Shown in pieces: positions 21,111 to 62,151 of a DNA stretch of 64,000 bases. Source of the DNA: Escherichia phage cardinal. The stretch is from the sequence record PQ567651.1. One strand, given 5' to 3'. The position numbers and the translations under genes were made by a program. Positions within the stretch are counted from its first letter, which is position 1. Every line of letters starts with the position of its first letter. Under the pieces are notes generated by a model, which saw nothing but the letters and a program-made list of their open reading frames with translations, had not been told where the DNA came from and made no database searches.

Positions 21111-21308
21111 ATGATGCTAGATCAACTGATCAATGCTCCTCGCGTAACAGTAAGTCCAAAAACATTTGCATCACTTTTAGAAGATGCTAGAGAGGTTTAT
21201 AACTTTACTGAAGAAGAGATTCCTGTTCCTGTTGAAAAAGGTTCCAGATGGTTGTTTTATGAAGGTATTATTTTTACTGAAGGGAATAATTGGAAGGAGA
21301 CTAAATGA
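21111..21308 (+). CDS. hypothetical protein
   Basis: ATG after AAGGAGG within track ORF 21018..21308. Confidence 0.45.
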   Translation: MMLDQLINAPRVTVSPKTFASLLEDAREVYNFTEEEIPVPVEKGSRWLFYEGIIFTEGNNWKETK

Positions 21309-22213
21309 AATACTTAGTAACAGGTGGTTTAGGCTTTATTGGAAGTGCGGTAGTTCGTTTCCTGGCTAAAAACACTAAGAATGATATTTACGTTATAGAT
21401 AAATGGAGTTACGCTTCAGACCCTAGAAATTTATCAGAAACACCTAATGTAAAGTTTTGTCGTGTTGACTTGACAAATGCTCAGTTAACTGCTAAGATTG
21501 TGGCAGATGTTAATCCAGATTATATAATGCATCTTGCAGCAGAAAGTCACGTAGATAACTCAATAGCATCACCGAGTGTTTTTATAAATTCAAATATTGT
21601 TGGAACATTTAATCTTCTAGAAGCTGTTCGTTTAATGGGAGATAAATCAAATCTTAAAATGTTTCATCATATTTCAACAGACTATGTTTTTGATGGGCAT
21701 GTTGCTGGCACAGAAGATAGTAAAACAAACCCCTTGAACACCTACGGTTACAGTAAACAATTAGGTGAAACTTTAGTACAAACAGTTTGTCCTACAGCAC
21801 TTATTATCAGAACAGCTTCTGTTTATAGTGAATTTGGACATAACTTTTTGAAAACTATGTTGGAACGCTACAACGGTGGTCAAAAAGAATTTAATGTAGT
21901 ATGTGATCATTTATCATGTCCTACTTATGCACCTGATCTTGCAGAAACAATTTTTAAACTTGTAAAAGATGGTGTAAATAGTAAAATTGTACACTATGCA
22001 GGTGCAGATTATATTTCTTGGTATGATTTTGCACGAAAGATATTTCTTGTTATAGATTTATCTGTTACAGTTAATCCTGTATCTGCTTCAACCTATAATT
22101 CCAAAGCAGTCAGACCAGCAACATCTTATTTAAGAACAGATCCTACTTTAAATCCGCGAAGTGTTGATAGCGGTATTGTAAGAGCTTTAACTATACTTTT
22201 AAACAAGGAGTGA
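21305..22213 (+). CDS. NAD(P)-dependent epimerase/reductase, RmlD (dTDP-4-dehydrorhamnose reductase)-like
   Basis: Rossmann VTGGLGFIGS and STDYVFDG motif characteristic of RmlD-type reductases. Confidence 0.5.
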   Translation: MKYLVTGGLGFIGSAVVRFLAKNTKNDIYVIDKWSYASDPRNLSETPNVKFCRVDLTNAQLTAKIVADVNPDYIMHLAAESHVDNSIASPSVFINSNIVGTFNLLEAVRLMGDKSNLKMFHHISTDYVFDGHVAGTEDSKTNPLNTYGYSKQLGETLVQTVCPTALIIRTASVYSEFGHNFLKTMLERYNGGQKEFNVVCDHLSCPTYAPDLAETIFKLVKDGVNSKIVHYAGADYISWYDFARKIFLVIDLSVTVNPVSASTYNSKAVRPATSYLRTDPTLNPRSVDSGIVRALTILLNKE

Positions 22214-23137: not shown

Positions 23138-23140
23138 ACA

Positions 23141-23162
23141 AAGGGGCGAAAGCCCCTTTTAT
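23141..23162 (+). terminator. rho-independent terminator ggggc-gaaa-gcccc + TTTT
   Basis: same hairpin sequence as at 12404 and 34425. Confidence 0.7.
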
Positions 23163-23175
23163 AAGGAGTGCAAAC

Positions 23176-23928
23176 ATGGGAAATAAAACCGCAAAGGCTC
23201 GTCGTCAATCAGCAGCCAATGATGACAAACGTGCCAGTCGTTATGCGGCTAAAGCAGTAGGAAATGATGATTACCGTCTTGATGAATTTACCCCTGTTGG
23301 GAATCAAGAAGCTATTGTAAGAAGCATGGTTTGGAATGATTTAACCATTGTTAATGCCCCAGCAGGAACAGGAAAAACGACAACAGCACTATGGAAAGCA
23401 TTGCAAATGCTTAAAGCTGGTGATTTCAGAAAGTTGATTTTCCTTAAAAACCCGACAGAAGTAGGTGATGATCAAATTGGTTTCTTATCTGGAGATAAGA
23501 CTGATAAACTAGCAGCACATTACGAATCAACTAAAAGAATTTTCCAACAGTTTATGACTGCAAATAAATTGGAAAACGATATTGCAAGTGGCAAAATTGA
23601 ACTTAATATTCCAAACTATGCACTAGGTGCTACGTGGGATAACAGCATTATTCTTATTGATGAAGTTCAACTTATGTCACCAAATACAGTAAAACTTCTC
23701 CTTGAGCGAGCAGGTCTTAATACACGTATTGTCATTATGGGTGATGTTAATCAAACATATGCAATTAAACGAAGAGCTAATGGGTTAGGTGATTTGTTAG
23801 ATCGTGTTGTTCCTATTAACGAAGAAGGAGAAAGGGAAGCTATTGTAGATTTTATTGGTTATGTTGAAATGACAACTGCTGATAACCAACGTTCCCGTTT
23901 GTCTCAGTTCATCACGGAAGTATATTAA
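23176..23928 (+). CDS. phoH: PhoH-like ATPase
   Basis: Walker A NAPAGTGKTTTAL and PhoH-like overall organisation. Confidence 0.8.
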   Translation: MGNKTAKARRQSAANDDKRASRYAAKAVGNDDYRLDEFTPVGNQEAIVRSMVWNDLTIVNAPAGTGKTTTALWKALQMLKAGDFRKLIFLKNPTEVGDDQIGFLSGDKTDKLAAHYESTKRIFQQFMTANKLENDIASGKIELNIPNYALGATWDNSIILIDEVQLMSPNTVKLLLERAGLNTRIVIMGDVNQTYAIKRRANGLGDLLDRVVPINEEGEREAIVDFIGYVEMTTADNQRSRLSQFITEVY

Positions 23929-23964
23929 TAATTACAAGGCAAGGATGCCTGTTATGGAGGTTAA

Positions 23965-24456
23965 ATGACGCTAATTGAGATTGATCGCAATGGTATTGAT
24001 GAATGCTATCAAGCTGGCTTAGTTAAGCCGAATGAGTTTAGACAGATTTATATTGACAAGATTGAAAAAGAAATATCTCTTCGTTTAGAGAACATGACAA
24101 CTTTGCAAAAAGTTCAGATGTTTTTTAGTTGGTTGAAAGGAGAGGATTGGCTAACTAAATATTACCAGGAATTATCTGATAGTCAAGAAGGCTTGTTTGA
24201 GTGTATAATAAATGTAGCTGGGTCTAATTCAGAGTTACTCCTGATTGATGAAGAAGATTCTAAACTTCTTTTTCTTAGCAGTATTTTTCACAAGAAATCT
24301 ATGTTAGTAAGAAATTGCAGTGATTTACTAAATCATCCACTAACAAGAACTAATAAAATTCTTGTGGATAAAGAAACACTAAGAGCTATTGATTACCTCC
24401 GTAAATATGTAAGCGGTGGTAAAGCAGTCCTTAAAACACTACAGGAGGAAGTATAA
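23965..24456 (+). CDS. hypothetical protein
   Basis: track ORF. Confidence 0.5.
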   Translation: MTLIEIDRNGIDECYQAGLVKPNEFRQIYIDKIEKEISLRLENMTTLQKVQMFFSWLKGEDWLTKYYQELSDSQEGLFECIINVAGSNSELLLIDEEDSKLLFLSSIFHKKSMLVRNCSDLLNHPLTRTNKILVDKETLRAIDYLRKYVSGGKAVLKTLQEEV

Positions 24457-25109
24457 TGACAACAATTATTGCAACACGTAACAAAATTTTGTCTGACGGT
24501 AAGGTAACAGTAGGTAGTCGTGTAGACACTTTAAACTTCAAGAAAGTGCGTAAAATTGGGGACTACCTTGTTGGTGGTGCAGGACGTCTGTCTTCTATCC
24601 TGACTTTCTTTTCTTGGTTTGAACAAAACTTACAATGCCAGGCAGCACAAGAGACAATCCCAGGTTTGGTGATCCAGTCAGATCCCGATAAAGAAGATGA
24701 AGAGTTTGTGGCATTGGTTGTTCATCCAGATGGTAAAATTTATATGCACGAGGGTAATAATCCAACGCGAGCATATCCTTTAACTGAAGATTATTATGCT
24801 GTTGGTAGTGGGGCAGATTTTGCTTTAGCAGCTTTAGATGCAGGGGCAACTCCAGAAGAAGCGATGGAAGTTGCAAAACTGCGAGATGCTTTTTCCGGCG
24901 GTGAAACTTTTATCGAAGAGATCGAAGAACAACTGGAGTTAACAGCGGAAGATATTCTGAACTTCAGCAAGGAGCAACTAATTAGTATGCTGTTGACTGG
25001 TGATCCTGATAGCGATGAAGCTGAAAGTATTTTAGCAGAAATGAAAGAATCACAAGAAAAAGTATTGACAGTCTCTGAAAAACTTGATAAAGTGTCCTCT
25101 GATAATTAA
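24456..25109 (+). CDS. HslV-like Ntn-hydrolase peptidase with acidic C-terminal extension
   Basis: MTTIIATR (Thr right after Met) and YAVGSGADFALAA resemble HslV TTIV.. and AIGSGG motifs. Confidence 0.5.
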   Translation: MTTIIATRNKILSDGKVTVGSRVDTLNFKKVRKIGDYLVGGAGRLSSILTFFSWFEQNLQCQAAQETIPGLVIQSDPDKEDEEFVALVVHPDGKIYMHEGNNPTRAYPLTEDYYAVGSGADFALAALDAGATPEEAMEVAKLRDAFSGGETFIEEIEEQLELTAEDILNFSKEQLISMLLTGDPDSDEAESILAEMKESQEKVLTVSEKLDKVSSDN

Positions 25110-25117
25110 TCTAGTAT

Positions 25118-25140
25118 AAACCCCCTCAAGGGGGTTATTA
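25118..25140 (+). terminator. hairpin accccct-caa-gggggt
   Basis: GC hairpin after stop; weak T-tract. Confidence 0.4.
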
Positions 25141-35202: not shown

Positions 35203-35526
35203 TTATACAATGTGTTTTGTTTTAACGTGCGAAGATTTAAAAATCTTATTATGTAATGAAATACGATTATCACGGAACACATAATAGTTAACAACATCTG
35301 GTTTATCAACACAGAGTGTAGCCACAACTTTCATAGGTATAGATACATTCTCACGAAGAGTAACACTACCTTTCAAACGTTCAGATGAAATGTGAATCAA
35401 ACCTTCTTTTTCATCAATGATAACTTCTTTAACATTTTTGAAATTATAACAAGAGTTGTCAACATAAGATACCCTTGCTTTTGTTTGCTTCTGTTTAGGA
35501 CGAGAACCAGTGTTTATTTTTTGCAT
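35203..35526 (-). CDS. hypothetical protein
   Basis: track ORF. Confidence 0.5.
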   Translation of the reverse strand: MQKINTGSRPKQKQTKARVSYVDNSCYNFKNVKEVIIDEKEGLIHISSERLKGSVTLRENVSIPMKVVATLCVDKPDVVNYYVFRDNRISLHNKIFKSSHVKTKHIV

Positions 35527-35534
35527 AGTTTTCC

Positions 35535-35822
35535 TTATTTGCTTTCACGAGCAAAATAATAATTTTCATATTCATTACGTGTAACGATTTCTGGATGATC
35601 AGGTTCACCGTAACTAAGTTTAATTTCAGGATACACTTTGGTGTTGAATAGACACGTAACACCTCTCATATAATATCCTGTAGGACTTAAAACAACATCA
35701 TCTTCACTTACACTTGAGAATTTTATTTCACCATTAGTATCTTTGACGACAATAAGAGCATGTTCAGGCCAATCAAGATTCTCTTCTTTCAGTTTTTCAT
35801 AAACTTCTTGCACTAGTTCCAT
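35535..35822 (-). CDS. hypothetical protein
   Basis: track ORF. Confidence 0.5.
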   Translation of the reverse strand: MELVQEVYEKLKEENLDWPEHALIVVKDTNGEIKFSSVSEDDVVLSPTGYYMRGVTCLFNTKVYPEIKLSYGEPDHPEIVTRNEYENYYFARESK

Positions 35823-35829
35823 ATTGCCT

Positions 35830-36005
35830 CCTCAGATTACAAATTTTTCTTCTTCTGGTTTCTCGTAGTTGGGAGAATAAACGTGGGATGGATTAAAACC
35901 TTTAAAGCTACCCCGCCCTTTTCGTGGACAATTGAATGTTTTAGCTTTGTGATCACCAAAAGATTTACCACAATGTACACATTTATAATTGGTATCTTTG
36001 AACAT
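35830..36005 (-). CDS. small Cys-rich protein (CxxC...C)
   Basis: 57 aa MFKDTNYKCVHCGKSFGDHK... with RBS GGAGAG; preferred over overlapping track ORF 35837..36034. Confidence 0.35.
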
Positions 36006-36160
36006 TTTACTCTCCTTTGAAAGATAGGCTGCACAGCAGTACAGCCTTTTAAAAATTAGTGTTTAAATTTTTCGATTACTTCGTCAACTTTAGCGATGAT
36101 AACATCTTGGTACTTGTGACCAAAATAACCAACAACAACACCAACAATAAACGTCATCAT

Positions 36161-36760
36161 TTACTTCTCCTTTTTAACTATAATTGCTTCTTCATTCAGG
36201 GTAAACAGCAAGGAAGATGTATCACCAACACACCTTGCACCTGGAATGAGTTCTAAAATCTTAGAGGATATAGCAATAGTATCTTCATCCAGTACATATT
36301 CTCCAGGTAACAATCTTAATGTTATTGGAAAATCTACGGATGCCAAACCAGAGAACATCCCATCATTAAGAAGAACAACTTCTAAACCGTTGCCTTCTTG
36401 TTGTGCATTATGCACTTTTTCAGGTAAGAAGTCAATACATTGATTTAAAATTTCCACATTTAATTCTACGCCAGTCCGAGCTTTATAAACTCTAGCCAAA
36501 TCTATGATCCGAGGATCAATACTGGCGTAAGGAGATTCTAGGTGTTTTGGGTCAATAGGAGCAACGCGCAATTTACCATCGAGAGATATCCACGTTACAA
36601 TCCACATTTCACCAACCCCAGGTTGATCTCGCTCAGTAAGGAATTCTACTAATGCTCCAGGGTTAGGCATTATGTAATCTTGTGTGATCAACATGTTCTT
36701 TACTCGCAAAAGCATTCCTGGCTTTAGTAAGCCCCTCTCACCACTCCAATATTCTTTCAT
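36161..36760 (-). CDS. hypothetical protein
   Basis: track ORF, start moved to ATG with AGGAG RBS. Confidence 0.5.
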   Translation of the reverse strand: MKEYWSGERGLLKPGMLLRVKNMLITQDYIMPNPGALVEFLTERDQPGVGEMWIVTWISLDGKLRVAPIDPKHLESPYASIDPRIIDLARVYKARTGVELNVEILNQCIDFLPEKVHNAQQEGNGLEVVLLNDGMFSGLASVDFPITLRLLPGEYVLDEDTIAISSKILELIPGARCVGDTSSLLFTLNEEAIIVKKEK

Positions 36761-36773
36761 TTTTACTCCTGAT

Positions 36774-37046
36774 TTAATGTCGTAGTTCACTAAACTTACA
36801 AACAAAGTGAACGTTAAGAAAAGTTAGTTTTCGATCTGGTGTAAACTCTGTTACTGTTTTATACACCTGTGCAATACCGAACCTGTTGATAGCAGGTACT
36901 GACAATTGGCTTATACATTTCATAGCTGACAGTTTTGCCTCTTCTTCAGATGCAAAATAAGTAAAGATACCTTCTTCGTCAACTATAATTTCTTGTGTAA
37001 CACAATCTACAAAACAAAAGAAAACATTAGGTAATTTTTCCGACAT
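36774..37046 (-). CDS. hypothetical protein
   Basis: track ORF. Confidence 0.5.
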   Translation of the reverse strand: MSEKLPNVFFCFVDCVTQEIIVDEEGIFTYFASEEEAKLSAMKCISQLSVPAINRFGIAQVYKTVTEFTPDRKLTFLNVHFVCKFSELRH

Positions 37047-37047
37047 A

Positions 37048-37260
37048 TTAGTTGTTCCTGTACTTAGAGAACAAAGTATTGACTAACCAGTCAGCAAACA
37101 GTAATCCAAGTGTACCAATACCGTAACCGATAAGCATAATGTAAGGCACTGCCTTATTTTCATTACCTGTCATTACTTCAGGAAAAATCAAAAACACAAT
37201 ACCGTTACCAACGATAATCCAGAACATAAGAAACACAAACATACGAAGCAACATTGTCAT
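37048..37260 (-). CDS. hypothetical membrane protein
   Basis: two hydrophobic segments. Confidence 0.5.
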   Translation of the reverse strand: MTMLLRMFVFLMFWIIVGNGIVFLIFPEVMTGNENKAVPYIMLIGYGIGTLGLLFADWLVNTLFSKYRNN

Positions 37261-37261
37261 A

Positions 37262-37444
37262 TTATTCTTCCTCCTTCACTTCTTCAACTTTACGAAGCAT
37301 ACGTTTATCAAATGTAGCTTTCTGTAGTTGTTCATTAACATCAAACCACACCACTTCGCAAGTATCGTAGGTAGATACCATTACAGTCATTAACATTTCT
37401 TCACTGGCAAGACGTACAATATCACCTGTTTTAATATTTACCAT
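37262..37444 (-). CDS. hypothetical protein
   Basis: track ORF. Confidence 0.45.
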   Translation of the reverse strand: MVNIKTGDIVRLASEEMLMTVMVSTYDTCEVVWFDVNEQLQKATFDKRMLRKVEEVKEEE

Positions 37445-37848
37445 AACTCCTCCAGAAGTTTACCAAGTTTAGTTTTAAATTCATTATCCCACGCTATACG
37501 AACTATGTCAAGATCACCTTGTGCATTACGTTTTGTATCTAAGTAGTAACCACCATGCTCATAGCGGTGTTTTATATGCTCGATCAGACGTTCTTTACCA
37601 CTCTTAGATAAATAATCATCAAATTCCCCATTGAAAAGGTCTAAGATTGTTTGTCTATTATCTCCTAATTGAGTGATTCTAAAGCTAATCAAACATCCCT
37701 GTAAACCTATATCTGTTTGTTTAAGAGAAAACTCATGACCAAAGCCGCCTGTAACTATAACAAGCGGTTTTCCTGTGATAGAGCTTTTAATAACATCTTG
37801 CTTAGGTTCTGCCAAAGATGTTAGAAACTCTTTTAACCATTTGAACAT
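37438..37848 (-). CDS. hypothetical protein
   Basis: track ORF. Confidence 0.5.
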   Translation of the reverse strand: MFKWLKEFLTSLAEPKQDVIKSSITGKPLVIVTGGFGHEFSLKQTDIGLQGCLISFRITQLGDNRQTILDLFNGEFDDYLSKSGKERLIEHIKHRYEHGGYYLDTKRNAQGDLDIVRIAWDNEFKTKLGKLLEELW

Positions 37849-38008
37849 AAACTCTCCTGTGTGGCGTGGCTTTGCCTAAGCGCCGAAGGCGCGGATCAAA
37901 TATAAGCTGAATTTATTACGCCCAGGTAGCCAGGGCGCATAAATATCAGAAATTTACCATCGAATAACTATTCGAGTAAAATTTTCATCGTAATGAGATG
38001 TTTCTGTA

Positions 38009-38203
38009 TCAATAAAAGTTGAAAAAACCTTCAGCATCCAAGCTAACTTTTGCGAAAGTTGGATAAAGCGTGTATATAGCAACTTCTCTGTCTCCATCTT
38101 TAGCTGCTCTCTCAATATACGCGTAGATATTTTGTAAACTCTCCTTTGCTTTGTTAAGTTCTGCGTTTTCTGCCAGTTCTCTCATTTTATCTGCTACAGT
38201 CAT
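38009..38203 (-). CDS. hypothetical protein
   Basis: track ORF. Confidence 0.45.
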   Translation of the reverse strand: MTVADKMRELAENAELNKAKESLQNIYAYIERAAKDGDREVAIYTLYPTFAKVSLDAEGFFNFY

Positions 38204-38472
38204 TTGTCAGTATCCTTTTCAATAAATCCTGTGGTTTTACAAGGCACACATTCATACATCTGTCCAACATCTGCAACTACCCAACCCATTCCATTGCAAT
38301 AAGGACAGATTGTTTTGTTCTCTTTAGCATACACAGCCAGAAGTCTTTCTTCTAGCTTGTTGTAATCAGCAAGAAGAACATAGTCTCCTTCTGGATCTGG
38401 TACAATATCACATTGACCAGCAGCACCTTGGCTGTACACCTCTAAATCATATCGTGTAACCATTATTCCCAC
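38200..38472 (-). CDS. hypothetical protein with two Cys pairs
   Basis: CPYCNG...CVPCK. Confidence 0.5.
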   Translation of the reverse strand: MGIMVTRYDLEVYSQGAAGQCDIVPDPEGDYVLLADYNKLEERLLAVYAKENKTICPYCNGMGWVVADVGQMYECVPCKTTGFIEKDTDK

Positions 38473-38681
38473 TCCGCAATCAGTTTTGGATTTTCTGCAC
38501 GAGAATAGAATGTTGTAATGTCACCGTAAGTGTACTCTTGTTCCGACAGTTTTACAAGAGAGATCATTTCACGATCTGGAGTACCAGGAATCCAATCAAA
38601 TACGGCAACGCCACGTGGTGTTACATAGAAACCAGATGTATTACCCGTAAACTTATCTTTTCCTTTATATAATTTGTACAC
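38463..38681 (-). CDS. hypothetical protein
   Basis: track ORF. Confidence 0.5.
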   Translation of the reverse strand: MYKLYKGKDKFTGNTSGFYVTPRGVAVFDWIPGTPDREMISLVKLSEQEYTYGDITTFYSRAENPKLIAEWE

Positions 38682-61010: not shown

Positions 61011-62045
61011 TTAAAACACACTTGCCAAAGTTGCACCATTGGTGATAGTTGGTTCCAGAACAATACGGAAAGAATCTTCTGGATCATCACTAAACACAAC
61101 GATTTTACCGCCTGTAATAAGGTCTGCTTTCATTTTTGTCGCATTCAATGGAATTCGAGCATCTCCTTCATCATCAAAAACCACGTAAGAGCTATTAGCA
61201 AGGGCTTCTTTAGAGTCTGCATCACTTGGAGATGACAAGTACACGTCTAGTGTGCACGAACCACCTAAAAAGATTGCAGGTGTGAAGTTATGCCAACTAG
61301 ATACCCAGCTAACTTTCTGAAGTTTTCCATTAATAACAACGCTGCTGATATCCCATTTATTACCACCACCTAAAGAAACACCCATCATAGAGATGCATTC
61401 TTTAAAGGATAAATCAGGGTAGAAATTAAGTTCTTCTACTATACCTTGGATCACATCAAAGGACAACTCTAAACTTACATCCCAAAGTCTTTGGAAATTA
61501 TCAAAGTGTGCTTTGTTATCCAGGTTTTTATCTAAATAGTCAATCATAGTTTCTAGTGAGATTTTATCATAATTAAAATTATAAAACACACGACTAGGAC
61601 GATTTAAAAAGAATTCAGAGATAAAACCACTGTTTTTAGTCAGAATAAACAGTTTATTACCACTGCCAGTACCATCTAACAAAGTGAGAAGTGCTTCTTG
61701 ATCTTGTTTCTTCTCATACACTTTATCAAACTCGTCAAAAATAATCACTGCTTTGTCGGTGATCTTGCTAATAAGTTCAATGAAATTAGCATCGCTGTAG
61801 GCTTGAGTAACCATAATAGTTGGAATACCTTCTTCTACAAGGTCACGACTAATGAGTTTGGCTAACATAGTTTTACCACTGCCCTTAGTTCCTGTCAGGA
61901 GCAAACCTGTATTTTTACCTTGTGCACTCCGGCGATGGAATGTACGAATAACGTGATTTGCTCGTTTTTCTGTTTCACCATACAGAACATCCGGTACACC
62001 TGTTAGATTACCACGGCTTAAAAAAATAATTGCCAAGGGGATCAC
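61011..62045 (-). CDS. AAA+/P-loop ATPase; N-terminus may extend to ATG near 62140 through a frameshift at an A7/T7 run
   Basis: Walker A GTKGSGKTML, Walker B VIIFDEFD; GTG start lacks RBS while upstream ATG has AAGGGG RBS in +1 frame. Confidence 0.6.
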   Translation of the reverse strand: MIPLAIIFLSRGNLTGVPDVLYGETEKRANHVIRTFHRRSAQGKNTGLLLTGTKGSGKTMLAKLISRDLVEEGIPTIMVTQAYSDANFIELISKITDKAVIIFDEFDKVYEKKQDQEALLTLLDGTGSGNKLFILTKNSGFISEFFLNRPSRVFYNFNYDKISLETMIDYLDKNLDNKAHFDNFQRLWDVSLELSFDVIQGIVEELNFYPDLSFKECISMMGVSLGGGNKWDISSVVINGKLQKVSWVSSWHNFTPAIFLGGSCTLDVYLSSPSDADSKEALANSSYVVFDDEGDARIPLNATKMKADLITGGKIVVFSDDPEDSFRIVLEPTITNGATLASVF

Positions 62046-62151
62046 GACTAACAGTATAGAATCCAGGTGGAAGATAGTTAGATTCCACGCCCATATCTTT
62101 ATTTACACTTACAATATCACCATAAATCGTGTATTTCATTTTAAACCCCTT

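What the first reader, a model, noticed from the sequence alone, without database searches (positions are those of the whole stretch)
24456..25109. HslV-like Ntn-hydrolase without an HslU partner
The N-terminus MTTIIATR places Thr immediately after Met as in HslV/proteasome beta subunits, and YAVGSGADFALAA matches the HslV GSGG region. There is a long acidic C-terminal tail and no AAA+ HslU-like gene nearby, so it may recruit a host unfoldase or act in capsid or host-protein processing.
Basis: inference. Interest (0 to 1): 0.45.

Follow-up and report, generated by a model that had tools for sequence, protein, structure and literature searches.

The report
Phage proteasome-like peptidase, no ATPase partner
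This gene in a phi92-like E. coli phage encodes a small proteasome/HslV-type threonine peptidase with no unfolding-ATPase partner; the family is already catalogued in phages, but nobody has tested what it does.

Summary
ORF 24456..25109 (+, 217 aa) begins MTT and carries the full proteasome catalytic set: Thr2, Asp14, Lys30, Gly40/43, Ser118-Gly119 and Asp144/Ser147. These residues are invariant or nearly so across 151 family representatives. The structure model is a proteasome-beta/HslV fold. E. coli HslU finds nothing in the window or in a complete relative genome.

The window is a phi92-like Escherichia myovirus, and the gene is the ortholog of Phi92_gp058. That gene was annotated 'putative 20S proteasome' in the original phi92 record and is now labelled 'peptidase HslV family' (PHROG 1040).

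It is not a true HslV. It scores 34 bits against an equivalog cutoff of 137, and it lacks helix H2. An acidic KEDEE loop replaces the HslV pore motif. It matches the PPH/RPC 'phage proteasome homolog' group described by Fuchs, Alva and Lupas (2021). That group lacks H2, has no co-occurring AAA+ protein, and has unknown function.

The 60-aa C-terminal extension contains a conserved helical module, followed by a variable acidic tail.

The most likely role is an accessory, ATPase-independent intracellular peptidase. A capsid-maturation role is unlikely, and use of host HslU is untested. Known family, moderate-to-low interest.

The parts
24456..25109 (+). Phage proteasome-homolog gene (PPH/RPC-type 'HslV family peptidase'), 217 aa; ortholog of Phi92_gp058
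   Evidence: ORF; Pfam, PHROG, PDB and NCBIfam hits; AF2 model and Foldseek; 99-100% identical to annotated genes in 55 Justusliebigvirus records.
24456..24920 (+). Catalytic Ntn core (aa 1-155) with Thr2, Asp14, Lys30, Gly40/Gly43, Ser118-Gly119, Asp144, Ser147-Gly148
   Evidence: Residues are invariant or nearly so in 22 close and 151 distant family representatives. They align to HslV T1/D17/K33/G45/G48/S124. Model pLDDT is 88-98 over most of the core.
24657..24707 (+). Acidic loop (aa 68-84, IPGLVIQSDPDKEDEEF) in place of helix H2 and the HslV pore motif
   Evidence: The model has no helix between H1 (45-67) and strand 85-89. K79-E83 aligns to EcHslV R86-K90. PPH/RPC are defined as lacking H2 (PMC8665760).
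24921..25001 (+). Conserved post-core module (aa 156-182: acidic linker, LTAED helix, SKEQLISMLLTG helix)
   Evidence: The motif LT(K/R)E...(S/T)K(E/D)(E/Q)L(L/I)..(L/I)(F/L)G recurs in most of the 94 long family members. Model helices are at 164-168 and 172-181.
25002..25106 (+). Variable acidic, helical C-terminal tail (aa 183-217)
   Evidence: 20 D/E against 5 K/R in aa 150-217. Length and sequence vary among relatives, some of which carry extra domains.
24443..24448 (+). Shine-Dalgarno AGGAGG, 7 nt before the ATG
   Evidence: Read from the sequence. The phi92 record annotates the same ribosome-binding site.
23965..24456 (+). Translationally coupled upstream gene (Phi92_gp059-like, 163 aa, all-alpha, unknown function); candidate partner
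23937..23950 (.). GC-rich intergenic hairpin upstream of the two-gene unit
   Evidence: Terminator-like scan. Not above the shuffle expectation, so function is not shown.
25121..25134 (.). GC-rich hairpin CCCCC-TCAA-GGGGG just after the stop codon
   Evidence: Sequence and scan. Function is not shown.
23176..23928 (+). PhoH-like P-loop ATPase; a conserved neighbour, not an unfoldase
   Evidence: Pfam PhoH 1.4e-35. PhoH lies upstream of the protease gene also in Vibrio and Aeromonas phages.
61011..62139 (-). Generic phage AAA+ ATPase (phrog_2376); considered and rejected as a partner; frameshifted in this window
   Evidence: PHROG and Pfam hits. No pore-loop motif. Its distribution is unrelated to the protease. 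Extra T near 62026 relative to muut.

Best explanation
The gene encodes a phage-lineage proteasome homolog. It matches the PPH/RPC group of Fuchs et al. 2021 and PHROG 1040. It is an N-terminal-threonine peptidase.

The following steps are shown:
- It is homologous to HslV and 20S beta subunits and is predicted to have their fold.
- Every catalytic residue is conserved. Thr2 directly follows Met1, so host methionine aminopeptidase can expose the nucleophile without a propeptide.
- The core is compact and lacks helix H2. An acidic loop (KEDEE) sits where HslV has its pore motif.
- A conserved helical module and an acidic tail follow the core.
- Neither the window nor a complete relative genome encodes HslU or any unfoldase-like AAA+ protein.
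- The gene lies in the non-structural nucleotide-metabolism block and is translationally coupled to a small all-alpha protein.

The following steps are inferred:
- The protein assembles into a ring-shaped, self-compartmentalised particle.
- In the infected cytoplasm it works as an ATPase-independent peptidase on unfolded proteins or peptides, in the manner proposed for BPH and the uncapped 20S proteasome.
- The acidic loop restricts access to the chamber.
- The C-terminal extension, which should face away from the ring, serves as a docking or targeting arm, possibly for the co-translated gp059-like protein.
- It is an accessory function rather than an essential one.
For: Homology and fold: HslV 8e-12, then 20S beta5 4e-6, then BPH 2e-4; pLDDT 83.9; HslV top hits, TM 0.63-0.66 on target length.

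Catalytic set conserved in 151 representatives at 50% identity: Thr2 138/142, Asp14 147, Lys30 150/150, Gly43 150, Gly117 151, Ser/Thr118 146, Gly119 149, Asp144 140, Ser/Thr147 137.

No unfoldase: HslU tblastn is empty at E<=10. The full muut annotation has no Clp, Hsl, Lon or FtsH gene. The two AAA+ paralogs resemble clamp or helicase loaders and lack a pore loop. Their family occurs in 378 phage records, including Enterococcus, Bacillus and Staphylococcus phages, genera absent from the listed hosts of the protease family.

Relatives occur in 42-kb siphoviruses, genomes with little room for a dedicated unfoldase; their gene content was not examined here.

H2 is absent and the loop is acidic, matching the published PPH/RPC definition and the BPH analogy (PMC8665760).

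Accessory status: phage VEcB (MT932211) carries a deletion that removes Thr2-Gly43 and all of gp059. Related rV5-like and PVP-SE1-like phages are not among the listed hits, although not every hit was listed.

Non-structural location, with a separate prohead protease elsewhere.
Against: There is no biochemical, structural or expression evidence for this protein or any PPH/RPC member. Five searches of the held full-text library found no functional study.

Oligomeric state cannot be predicted with the tools available. Loss of H2 could alter or prevent ring stacking, and Fuchs et al. warn that some homologs may have novel quaternary structures.

Proteasome-fold proteins are not always proteases; connectase is a ligase.

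All named hosts seen in the listings for this family are Proteobacteria, which as a rule encode HslUV (my own knowledge). Dependence on host HslU is therefore not excluded.

The VEcB deletion could be an assembly artefact. Another VEcB record (OZ035773) is intact.
Confidence: 0.55

Rival explanations
1. Host-unfoldase hijack. The phage protein forms rings that dock onto host HslU (or another host AAA+ such as ClpX). This would create a hybrid ATP-dependent protease that redirects host proteolysis, or would titrate HslU away from host HslV.
For: HslV is the closest solved relative. Every named host seen in the listings for the long and core-only branches is a proteobacterium, a group that as a rule has HslUV. 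Two hydrophobic pocket positions on H1 are retained in kind: EcHslV F54 and F57 correspond to L49 and F52 (pocket residues from PMC6429459).
Against: The other pocket elements (A79, K80) lie in helix H2, which is missing. That region is a variable, often gapped loop in the family. Q114 corresponds to Tyr, Phe or an aliphatic residue. HslV equivalog scores are far below cutoff: 34 against 137 bits. The HslV pore motif is replaced by KEDEE. Identity to host HslV is only 28%, so this is not a recent host capture. Fuchs et al. found no AAA+ co-occurrence.
Confidence: 0.25
2. Targeted counter-defence or host-takeover protease. The variable C-terminal extension recruits specific host proteins, such as defence or nucleoid proteins, for cleavage. 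In relatives with HeH/SAP-like ends, the enzyme would be tethered to nucleic acid.
For: The tail varies in length and carries extra domains in relatives, while the proximal module is conserved. Five of 22 tails give weak hits to the HeH-class families Rho_N, Ish1 and SAP, with a best E of 0.0013. An 'HslVU family' protease of Erwinia phage RAY localises with phage DNA, and its authors suggest an anti-defence role (bioRxiv 10.1101/2023.02.24.529968). C-termini are expected to face away from the ring (PMC8665760).
Against: The Pfam hits are all below the gathering scores, and none is in the window's own tail. It was not shown that RAY gp116 belongs to this subfamily. No substrate is known. Core-only relatives lack any tail.
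Confidence: 0.12
3. The partner is one of the phage's own AAA+ ATPases (phrog_2376; window 61011..62139, plus a paralog elsewhere in the genome).
For: Both proteins pass the Pfam AAA PF00004 threshold, with weak similarity to p97, fidgetin and spastin AAA domains.
Against: They are about 36 kb away and on the opposite strand. Their best secondary PHROG hits are clamp loaders and DnaC-like helicase loaders. There is no aromatic-hydrophobic-Gly pore loop between Walker A and Walker B. The family is in 378 phage records, including Gram-positive phage groups absent from the protease listings, and Vibrio phages are not among its top host genera. The window's copy is frameshifted.
Confidence: 0.04
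4. Virion-associated or prohead maturation protease (the capsid processing suggested by the first reader).
For: Many large phages need a head-maturation protease.
Against: The gene sits among nucleotide-metabolism, PhoH and methylase genes, far from the structural module. A separate XkdF/Peptidase_S78_2 homolog (E=2.5e-11) lies between the portal and major capsid genes in the relative muut. The phi92 virion proteome paper could not be read, so absence from virions is not directly confirmed.
Confidence: 0.03

Closest known systems
PPH / RPC proteasome homologs (Fuchs, Alva & Lupas 2021, Bioinformatics 37:4694; PMC8665760)
   Same: Both have a compact proteasome-like core of about 140-155 aa with the Thr1/Asp17/Lys33/Gly47 set and no propeptide. 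Helix H2 is missing. Both are found in tailed phages of Proteobacteria and their prophages. No AAA+ protein co-occurs. [quoted passage not shown]
   Different: Assignment to the PPH or the RPC cluster was not tested against their reference sequences (WP_042125023.1, WP_140207863), which could not be fetched. In their Table 1, RPC is listed for Proteobacteria but not for phages, whereas this long form is clearly phage-borne. The conserved post-core LTxE...SKEQLL module is not mentioned in the passages of that paper that I read.
HslV (ClpQ), the peptidase of the HslUV protease
   Same: HslV is the closest solved relative in sequence and fold. Both have an MTT N-terminus with no propeptide and share the T1, D17, K33, G45/G48 and GSG(S124) positions.
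   Different: Identity to E. coli HslV is only 28%, and the score is 34 bits against the 137-bit equivalog cutoff. There is no hslU gene. H2 and the pocket residues A79 and K80 are absent. The pore motif RMLRK is replaced by KEDEE. There are deletions in the first hairpin (4 aa) and between H3 and H4 (9 aa). The protein retains the 20S-type RDxxSGG motif, which HslV lacks, and it adds a 60-aa C-terminal extension.
BPH (Betaproteobacteria proteasome homologue, PDB 5OVS)
   Same: BPH is a stand-alone proteasome homolog with no known unfoldase and a long acidic pore loop. It is the best functional analogy for an ATPase-independent peptidase.
   Different: Sequence similarity is weaker (profile E=1.7e-4). 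BPH is a cellular protein and, per PMC8665760, retains both helix pairs. Its heptameric double ring (my own knowledge) cannot be assumed here.
20S proteasome beta subunits
   Same: Same fold and full catalytic apparatus, including the Asp166/Ser169-type RDxxSGG motif.
   Different: There is no propeptide, no alpha-subunit partner, no S12/H5 C-terminal elements and no H2. The profile E-value is only about 4e-6.

Membership tests
Proteasome-like Ntn hydrolase superfamily (Pfam PF00227) | Score above the curated Pfam gathering threshold | tested here: met
   25.1 bits against a 22.4 cutoff, E=1.6e-5. The profile against PDB HslV gives 8e-12.
Proteasome-like Ntn hydrolase superfamily (Pfam PF00227) | Alpha-beta-beta-alpha sandwich fold | tested here: met
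   AF2 model with pLDDT 83.9. Foldseek probability 1.0 to HslV, 20S beta and BPH.
Proteasome-like Ntn hydrolase superfamily (Pfam PF00227) | N-terminal Thr/Ser nucleophile plus Asp17, Lys33, the Gly47 oxyanion hole and Ser129 | tested here: met
   Thr2, Asp14, Lys30, Gly40/43 and Ser118 align to the HslV residues. They are conserved in 151 representatives.
Proteasome-like Ntn hydrolase superfamily (Pfam PF00227) | Peptidase activity dependent on Thr1 | not testable with these tools
   This needs an enzyme assay with a T2A control.
HslV (ClpQ) proper | Score above the NCBIfam equivalog cutoffs (NF003964, TIGR03692) | tested here: not met
   34.0 against 137 bits, and 31.6 against 157.75 bits.
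HslV (ClpQ) proper | Encoded with hslU in the same operon or genome | tested here: not met
   tblastn of EcHslU gives no hit at E<=10 in the window or the full muut genome. The annotation shows none. HslV is almost always in an operon with HslU (PMC3235984).
HslV (ClpQ) proper | HslU C-tail docking pocket (EcHslV F54, F57, A79, K80, Q114) on the H1/H2 face | tested here: inconclusive
   F54 and F57 correspond to L49 and F52, so the hydrophobic character is kept. A79 and K80 correspond to Q74 and S75 in a non-helical, variable, often gapped loop. Q114 corresponds to Y107 (residues from PMC6429459). No complex modelling was possible.
HslV (ClpQ) proper | Short pore loop with the R86-K90 motif | tested here: not met
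   It aligns to the acidic K79-E83 KEDEE segment within a 17-residue loop.
PPH/RPC (Fuchs et al. 2021) | Lacks helix H2 | tested here: met
   The model has H1 at 45-67, then coil at 68-84, then a strand. The definition is in PMC8665760. Loop pLDDT is only 67-82.
PPH/RPC (Fuchs et al. 2021) | Compact core of about 140 aa without S12/H5; RPC has a C-terminal extension | tested here: met
   The core ends near aa 155. Of 151 relatives, 57 are core-only (130-160 aa) and 94 carry extensions.
PPH/RPC (Fuchs et al. 2021) | Found in tailed phages of Proteobacteria and their prophages | tested here: met
   171, 210 and 568 phage records in three searches, with all named hosts in the listings proteobacterial. 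The bacterial-genome scan found only one 425-bp contig.
PPH/RPC (Fuchs et al. 2021) | Clusters with the reference sequences WP_042125023.1 (PPH) or WP_140207863 (RPC) | not tested
   The reference sequences could not be fetched with the tools available.
Phage prohead (capsid maturation) protease | Located in the head module next to the portal, scaffold and capsid genes; S78, S80, U9 or U35-type fold | tested here: not met
   The gene lies in the metabolic block. A separate Peptidase_S78_2 homolog occupies the head-module position.

The most novel reading that the evidence does not exclude
The long branch of this phage family may be a self-sufficient 'one-gene proteasome'. Under this reading, the conserved post-core helical module (LTxE...SKEQLL..LFG) acts in cis or in trans on the ring. 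It could substitute for the activating HslU C-terminal peptide, or it could gate the acidic pore. The variable tail, or the co-translated gp059-like protein, would select specific host targets such as defence or nucleoid proteins. This would be a compact, ATP-independent, targeted protease used for host takeover.
Probability: 0.12. Interest if true: 0.7.

Novelty: already known. Interest (0 to 1): 0.3.

Why it matters
Proteasome-like peptidases without any unfoldase are a standing puzzle. BPH, Anbu and the roughly twenty groups catalogued in 2021 all lack known functions. The phage-borne PPH/RPC branch is the most tractable of these. It sits in easily manipulated coliphages: the phi92 and phAPEC8 groups, and BASEL collection members such as EmilieFrey, JohannJBalmer and PaulScherrer. 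The host has clean hslU and hslV knockouts, and a natural deletion variant (VEcB) may already exist.

Working out what this enzyme degrades could show one of two things. It might show how a proteasome fold works without an ATPase, or it might reveal a new way for phages to exploit host AAA+ machines. As a genome-scan finding, however, it re-identifies an already annotated and published family.

Tried and rejected

2. I tested the phage AAA+ ATPases as partners. This was rejected on family similarity, the missing pore loop and an unrelated distribution.

3. I considered a prohead protease role. It was rejected on gene location and the presence of a separate S78-type protease.

4. I considered a recent capture of the host hslV gene. 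It was rejected: identity to EcHslV is 28%, no closer than to Thermotoga HslV.

5. I searched bacterial genomes for relatives with informative neighbours. Only one 425-bp contig was found. The pattern-based scan is limited to close relatives.

6. I tested the tail as a SAP/HeH domain. There are weak sub-threshold hits in some distant relatives, and none in this protein.

7. I tried to read the phi92 genome and proteome paper (Schwarzer 2012) for virion mass-spectrometry data. It is not held.

8. The promoter and terminator scans were not above the shuffle expectation, so no transcription-unit claim rests on them.

9. From memory, I recalled that HslV Lys28 contacts the HslU C-terminus. I could not confirm this in the papers held, so it is not used.
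Full report
**Observation.** The ORF is at exactly 24456..25109 on the + strand and encodes 217 aa. It has an AGGAGG ribosome-binding site 7 nt upstream. Its ATG overlaps the stop codon of the preceding ORF, 23965..24456, as TAATG. The N-terminus is MTTIIATR, and YAVGSGADFALAA occupies aa 113-125. The last 68 residues hold 20 Asp/Glu against 5 Lys/Arg.

**Where the window comes from.** The region is 99% identical to phi92-like Escherichia myoviruses of the genus Justusliebigvirus, subfamily Stephanstirmvirinae. The protein is 100% identical to the products of phages muut, EmilieFrey, JohannJBalmer and others, and 99% identical to Phi92_gp058. Public records already call it 'putative 20S proteasome' (the original phi92 record), 'putative proteasome component', 'nucleophile aminohydrolase' or 'peptidase HslV family'.

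**Homology and fold.**
- Pfam Proteasome (PF00227) is passed at 25.1 bits against a cutoff of 22.4.
- PHROG 1040 'peptidase HslV family' matches at 1.3e-61.
- phmmer against PDB sequences puts HslV first: T. maritima 5e-8 and E. coli 1e-5.
- A profile of 22 family members ranks HslV at 8e-12 to 2e-8, then 20S beta5 at 4e-6, then BPH at 2e-4.
- An AlphaFold2 model (mean pLDDT 83.9) shows the Ntn beta-sandwich for residues 1-155, followed by three C-terminal helices.
- Foldseek against the PDB returns HslV from S. aureus, T. maritima, B. anthracis and E. coli at probability 1.0. TM-scores are 0.63-0.66 on target length. [quoted passage not shown]

**Catalytic apparatus.** In the HMMER alignment to E. 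coli HslV, the phage residues map as follows:

| Phage residue | HslV residue |
|---|---|
| Thr2 | T1 |
| Asp14 | D17 |
| Lys30 | K33 |
| Gly40 / Gly43 | G45 / G48 |
| Ser118 | S124 |

An exhaustive HMMER search of 1.84 billion cluster representatives found 2034 relatives at E<=1e-3. In an alignment of the best 150 plus the query, these positions are almost invariant:

| Position | Count conserved (151 sequences aligned) |
|---|---|
| Thr2 | 138 of 142 that have an N-terminus (4 are Ser) |
| Asp14 | 147 |
| Lys30 | 150 of 150 |
| Gly43 | 150 |
| Gly117 | 151 |
| Ser/Thr118 | 146 |
| Gly119 | 149 |
| Asp144 | 140 |
| Ser/Thr147 | 137 |
| Gly148 | 138 |

Asp144 and Ser147-Gly148 form an RDxxSGG motif. 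From established knowledge of 20S beta subunits (Asp166, Ser169), this motif supports the active site. In the profile alignment, T. maritima HslV does not have it. A pseudo-enzyme is therefore unlikely. Thr directly after Met, with no propeptide, means host methionine aminopeptidase can expose the nucleophile, as in HslV. This last point is an inference.

**Not a true HslV.**
- The two NCBIfam HslV equivalog models score 34 and 31.6 bits against cutoffs of 137 and 157.75.
- Identity to the host's own HslV is 28% over 127 residues.
- The model has helix H1 (45-67) but no H2. Residues 68-84 (IPGLVIQSDPDKEDEEF) are coil with pLDDT 67-82.
- The residues reported to accommodate the HslU C-terminus in E. 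coli and H. influenzae HslV are F54, F57, A79, K80 and Q114 (PMC6429459). Here they map to L49, F52, Q74, S75 and Y107. Positions 74 and 75 fall in a segment that is variable and often gapped across the family.
- The HslV pore motif R86-K90 aligns to K79-E83, KEDEE.

**No unfoldase.**
- tblastn of genuine E. coli HslU, taken from NC_000913, against the window and the complete 146-kb genome of phage muut gave no hit at E<=10. E. coli HslV hit only this ORF.
- The muut annotation contains no Clp, Hsl, Lon or FtsH-type gene.
- Two paralogous AAA+ proteins exist (phrog_2376). One is in this window at 61011..62139 (-). They pass Pfam AAA, but their next-best similarities are to clamp loaders and DnaC-like loaders.
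- Those paralogs have Walker A and B motifs but no aromatic-hydrophobic-Gly pore loop between them.
- Their family occurs in 378 phage records, including Enterococcus, Bacillus and Staphylococcus phages. Those genera are absent from the listed hosts of the protease.
- PhoH, two genes upstream (23176..23928), is a P-loop ATPase and not an unfoldase.

**Not the head protease.** In muut, the gene between portal and major capsid is annotated 'DNA methyltransferase', but it matches Peptidase_S78_2 (XkdF) at 2.5e-11. The HslV-like gene instead lies among dTDP-rhamnose, glutaredoxin, lysozyme, PhoH, methylase and recombinase genes.

**Family structure.**
- tblastn finds the long form in 171 phage records: Escherichia, Klebsiella, Vibrio, Aeromonas, Shewanella, Caulobacter and Erythrobacter phages.
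- Of the 151 representatives, 57 are core-only (130-160 aa) and 94 carry extensions.
- Core-only members hit 210 and 568 phage records. These include 42-kb Jersey-like Salmonella siphoviruses and Caulobacter, Rhizobium, Pseudomonas, Xanthomonas and Ruegeria phages. All named hosts in the listings are Proteobacteria.
- A pattern scan of 185,579 bacterial and archaeal species genomes returned only one 425-bp contig.
- BFVD holds 46 viral cluster representatives with this fold.

**The C-terminal extension.** Most long members share a module directly after the core: an acidic linker, LT(K/R)E, then (S/T)K(E/D)(E/Q)L(L/I)..(L/I)(F/L)G. Here it reads ELTAEDILNFSKEQLISMLLTG, with model helices at 164-168 and 172-181. 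Variable acidic tails or extra domains follow it. Several distant members end in a motif like LGVKYAHNIs.EKL. Five of 22 tails give weak hits to HeH-class families: Rho_N at 0.0018, Ish1 at 0.0013 and SAP_new25 at 0.088. All are below the gathering scores, and none is in this protein.

**Neighbour.**
- The upstream ORF (Phi92_gp059-like) is translationally coupled to the HslV-like gene. The same 1-nt overlap occurs in the phAPEC8-like phage ESCO5.
- GC hairpins at 23937-23950 and 25121-25134 bracket the pair. The scan was not above chance, so this is descriptive only.
- The protein is a confident all-alpha bundle (pLDDT 92.3). It has no informative structural match and no relation to the protease family. 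It is confined to the phi92/phAPEC8 lineage.
- It is a candidate partner but not a universal one.

**Prior knowledge.**
[quoted passage not shown] - They state that PPH/RPC 'lacks the second helix (H2)'. They note that C-termini face away from the assumed rings and could be interaction sites. They found no co-occurring AAA+ interactors, and the function is unknown.
- They also note that the pore loop is short in HslU-gated HslV but long and acidic in BPH, which has no unfoldase.
- The features found here match that description: no H2, a compact core, phage distribution, no AAA+ protein and a C-terminal extension.
- A Salmonella jumbo-phage paper had already remarked on HslV genes without HslU (PMC7823757).
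- An 'HslVU family' protease of Erwinia phage RAY localises with phage DNA (bioRxiv 10.1101/2023.02.24.529968). I did not show that it belongs to this subfamily.
- Five searches of the held full-text library turned up no functional study.

**Mechanism.**
- The following are shown: a catalytically equipped proteasome-fold protein, no phage unfoldase, a non-structural location and a conserved tail module.
- The following are inferred: the protein forms a ring and acts as an ATPase-independent peptidase on unfolded proteins or peptides. In this it would resemble what has been proposed for BPH and the uncapped 20S. The acidic loop would limit access, and the extension would dock partners or targets.
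- Host-HslU hijacking remains a live rival at about 0.25. The family's hosts all appear to belong to a group that has HslUV. However, the docking face has diverged.
- The gene is probably accessory. The VEcB record MT932211 carries a deletion that fuses PhoH residues 1-113 to protease residues 64-217. This removes gp059 and the catalytic N-terminus. Another VEcB record and 53 other Justusliebigvirus records are intact, so an assembly artefact is not excluded.

**Verdict.**
The protein is a PPH/RPC-type phage proteasome homolog, not HslV proper and not a capsid protease.
- The family and its orphan status are already published and annotated, so novelty is 'already known'.
- What remains interesting is the complete lack of functional data for a widespread, experimentally accessible phage enzyme.

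Noticed in passing
L010 (MT932211.1 Escherichia phage VEcB) 1501-2304; corresponds to window 23176..25109: One published Justusliebigvirus genome has a deletion of about 1.1 kb. It fuses PhoH residues 1-113 in frame to residues 64-217 of the HslV-like protein (vecB_055, 267 aa). The deletion removes all of the gp059-like gene and the catalytic N-terminus. A second VEcB record (OZ035773.1) is intact. This is either a viable natural deletion mutant or an assembly error.
   Followed up: partly
window 61011..62139 (-), around 62026: The AAA+ ATPase gene (muut gp102 ortholog) has an extra T in a T-run plus a C-to-T change relative to phage muut. This breaks the reading frame after about 31 codons. 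It could be a homopolymer sequencing error or a real frameshift.
   Followed up: partly
L005 (Aeromonas phage 4L372D) 3432-3983 and 4001-4885: Two adjacent proteasome-like genes. The first is a 183-aa paralog beginning MTCIIAL, with GCG in place of GSG (Pfam Proteasome E=0.013). The second is the 294-aa ortholog of the window's gene. This may be a two-subunit phage particle.
   Followed up: partly
L001 (phage muut) 2398-2877 (-): The gene between portal and major capsid is annotated 'DNA methyltransferase', but it matches Peptidase_S78_2 (XkdF-type prohead protease) at E=2.5e-11. The public annotation is probably wrong.
   Followed up: partly
Distant relatives P0086, P0088, P0092, P0095, P0096, P0102, P0105 and others (C-termini): Many long family members end in a recurring motif, L..(I/V)A..LG(V/I)KY(A/S)HNI(G/S).EKL..(R/K)(I/L). 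It gives weak hits to Rho_N, Ish1 and SAP (helix-extended-loop-helix class). This hints that some of these peptidases are tethered to nucleic acid.
   Followed up: partly
window 23176..25109; L004, L005, L007: PhoH lies upstream of the proteasome-like gene in E. coli, Vibrio and Aeromonas phages whose protease proteins are only about 35% identical. It lies 1-2 genes upstream in the E. coli and Vibrio phages and about seven genes upstream in the Aeromonas phage. This could be conserved synteny or a functional link.
   Followed up: no
Phage records MG065639, MG065645, MG065656, MG065689 ('Campylobacter phage' A150, A145, C3, A110a): These records are labelled as Campylobacter jejuni phages. Over this region they are 98.5% identical to phi92-like coliphages and about 146 kb long. 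The host labels are probably wrong, or the preparations were contaminated.
   Followed up: no
window 23140-23159, 23937-23950, 25121-25134: Short GC-rich palindromic hairpins sit in successive intergenic gaps of this otherwise AT-rich gene block, after the lysozyme, PhoH and protease genes. They may be transcript-processing, stability or terminator elements. The scan was not above the shuffle expectation.
   Followed up: no
window 21305..22213 and muut 35398-38659: The phage carries a full dTDP-rhamnose pathway (RmlA, B, C and D homologs) next to glutaredoxin and ribonucleotide reductase genes. The purpose is unknown; DNA or glycan modification are possibilities.
   Followed up: no
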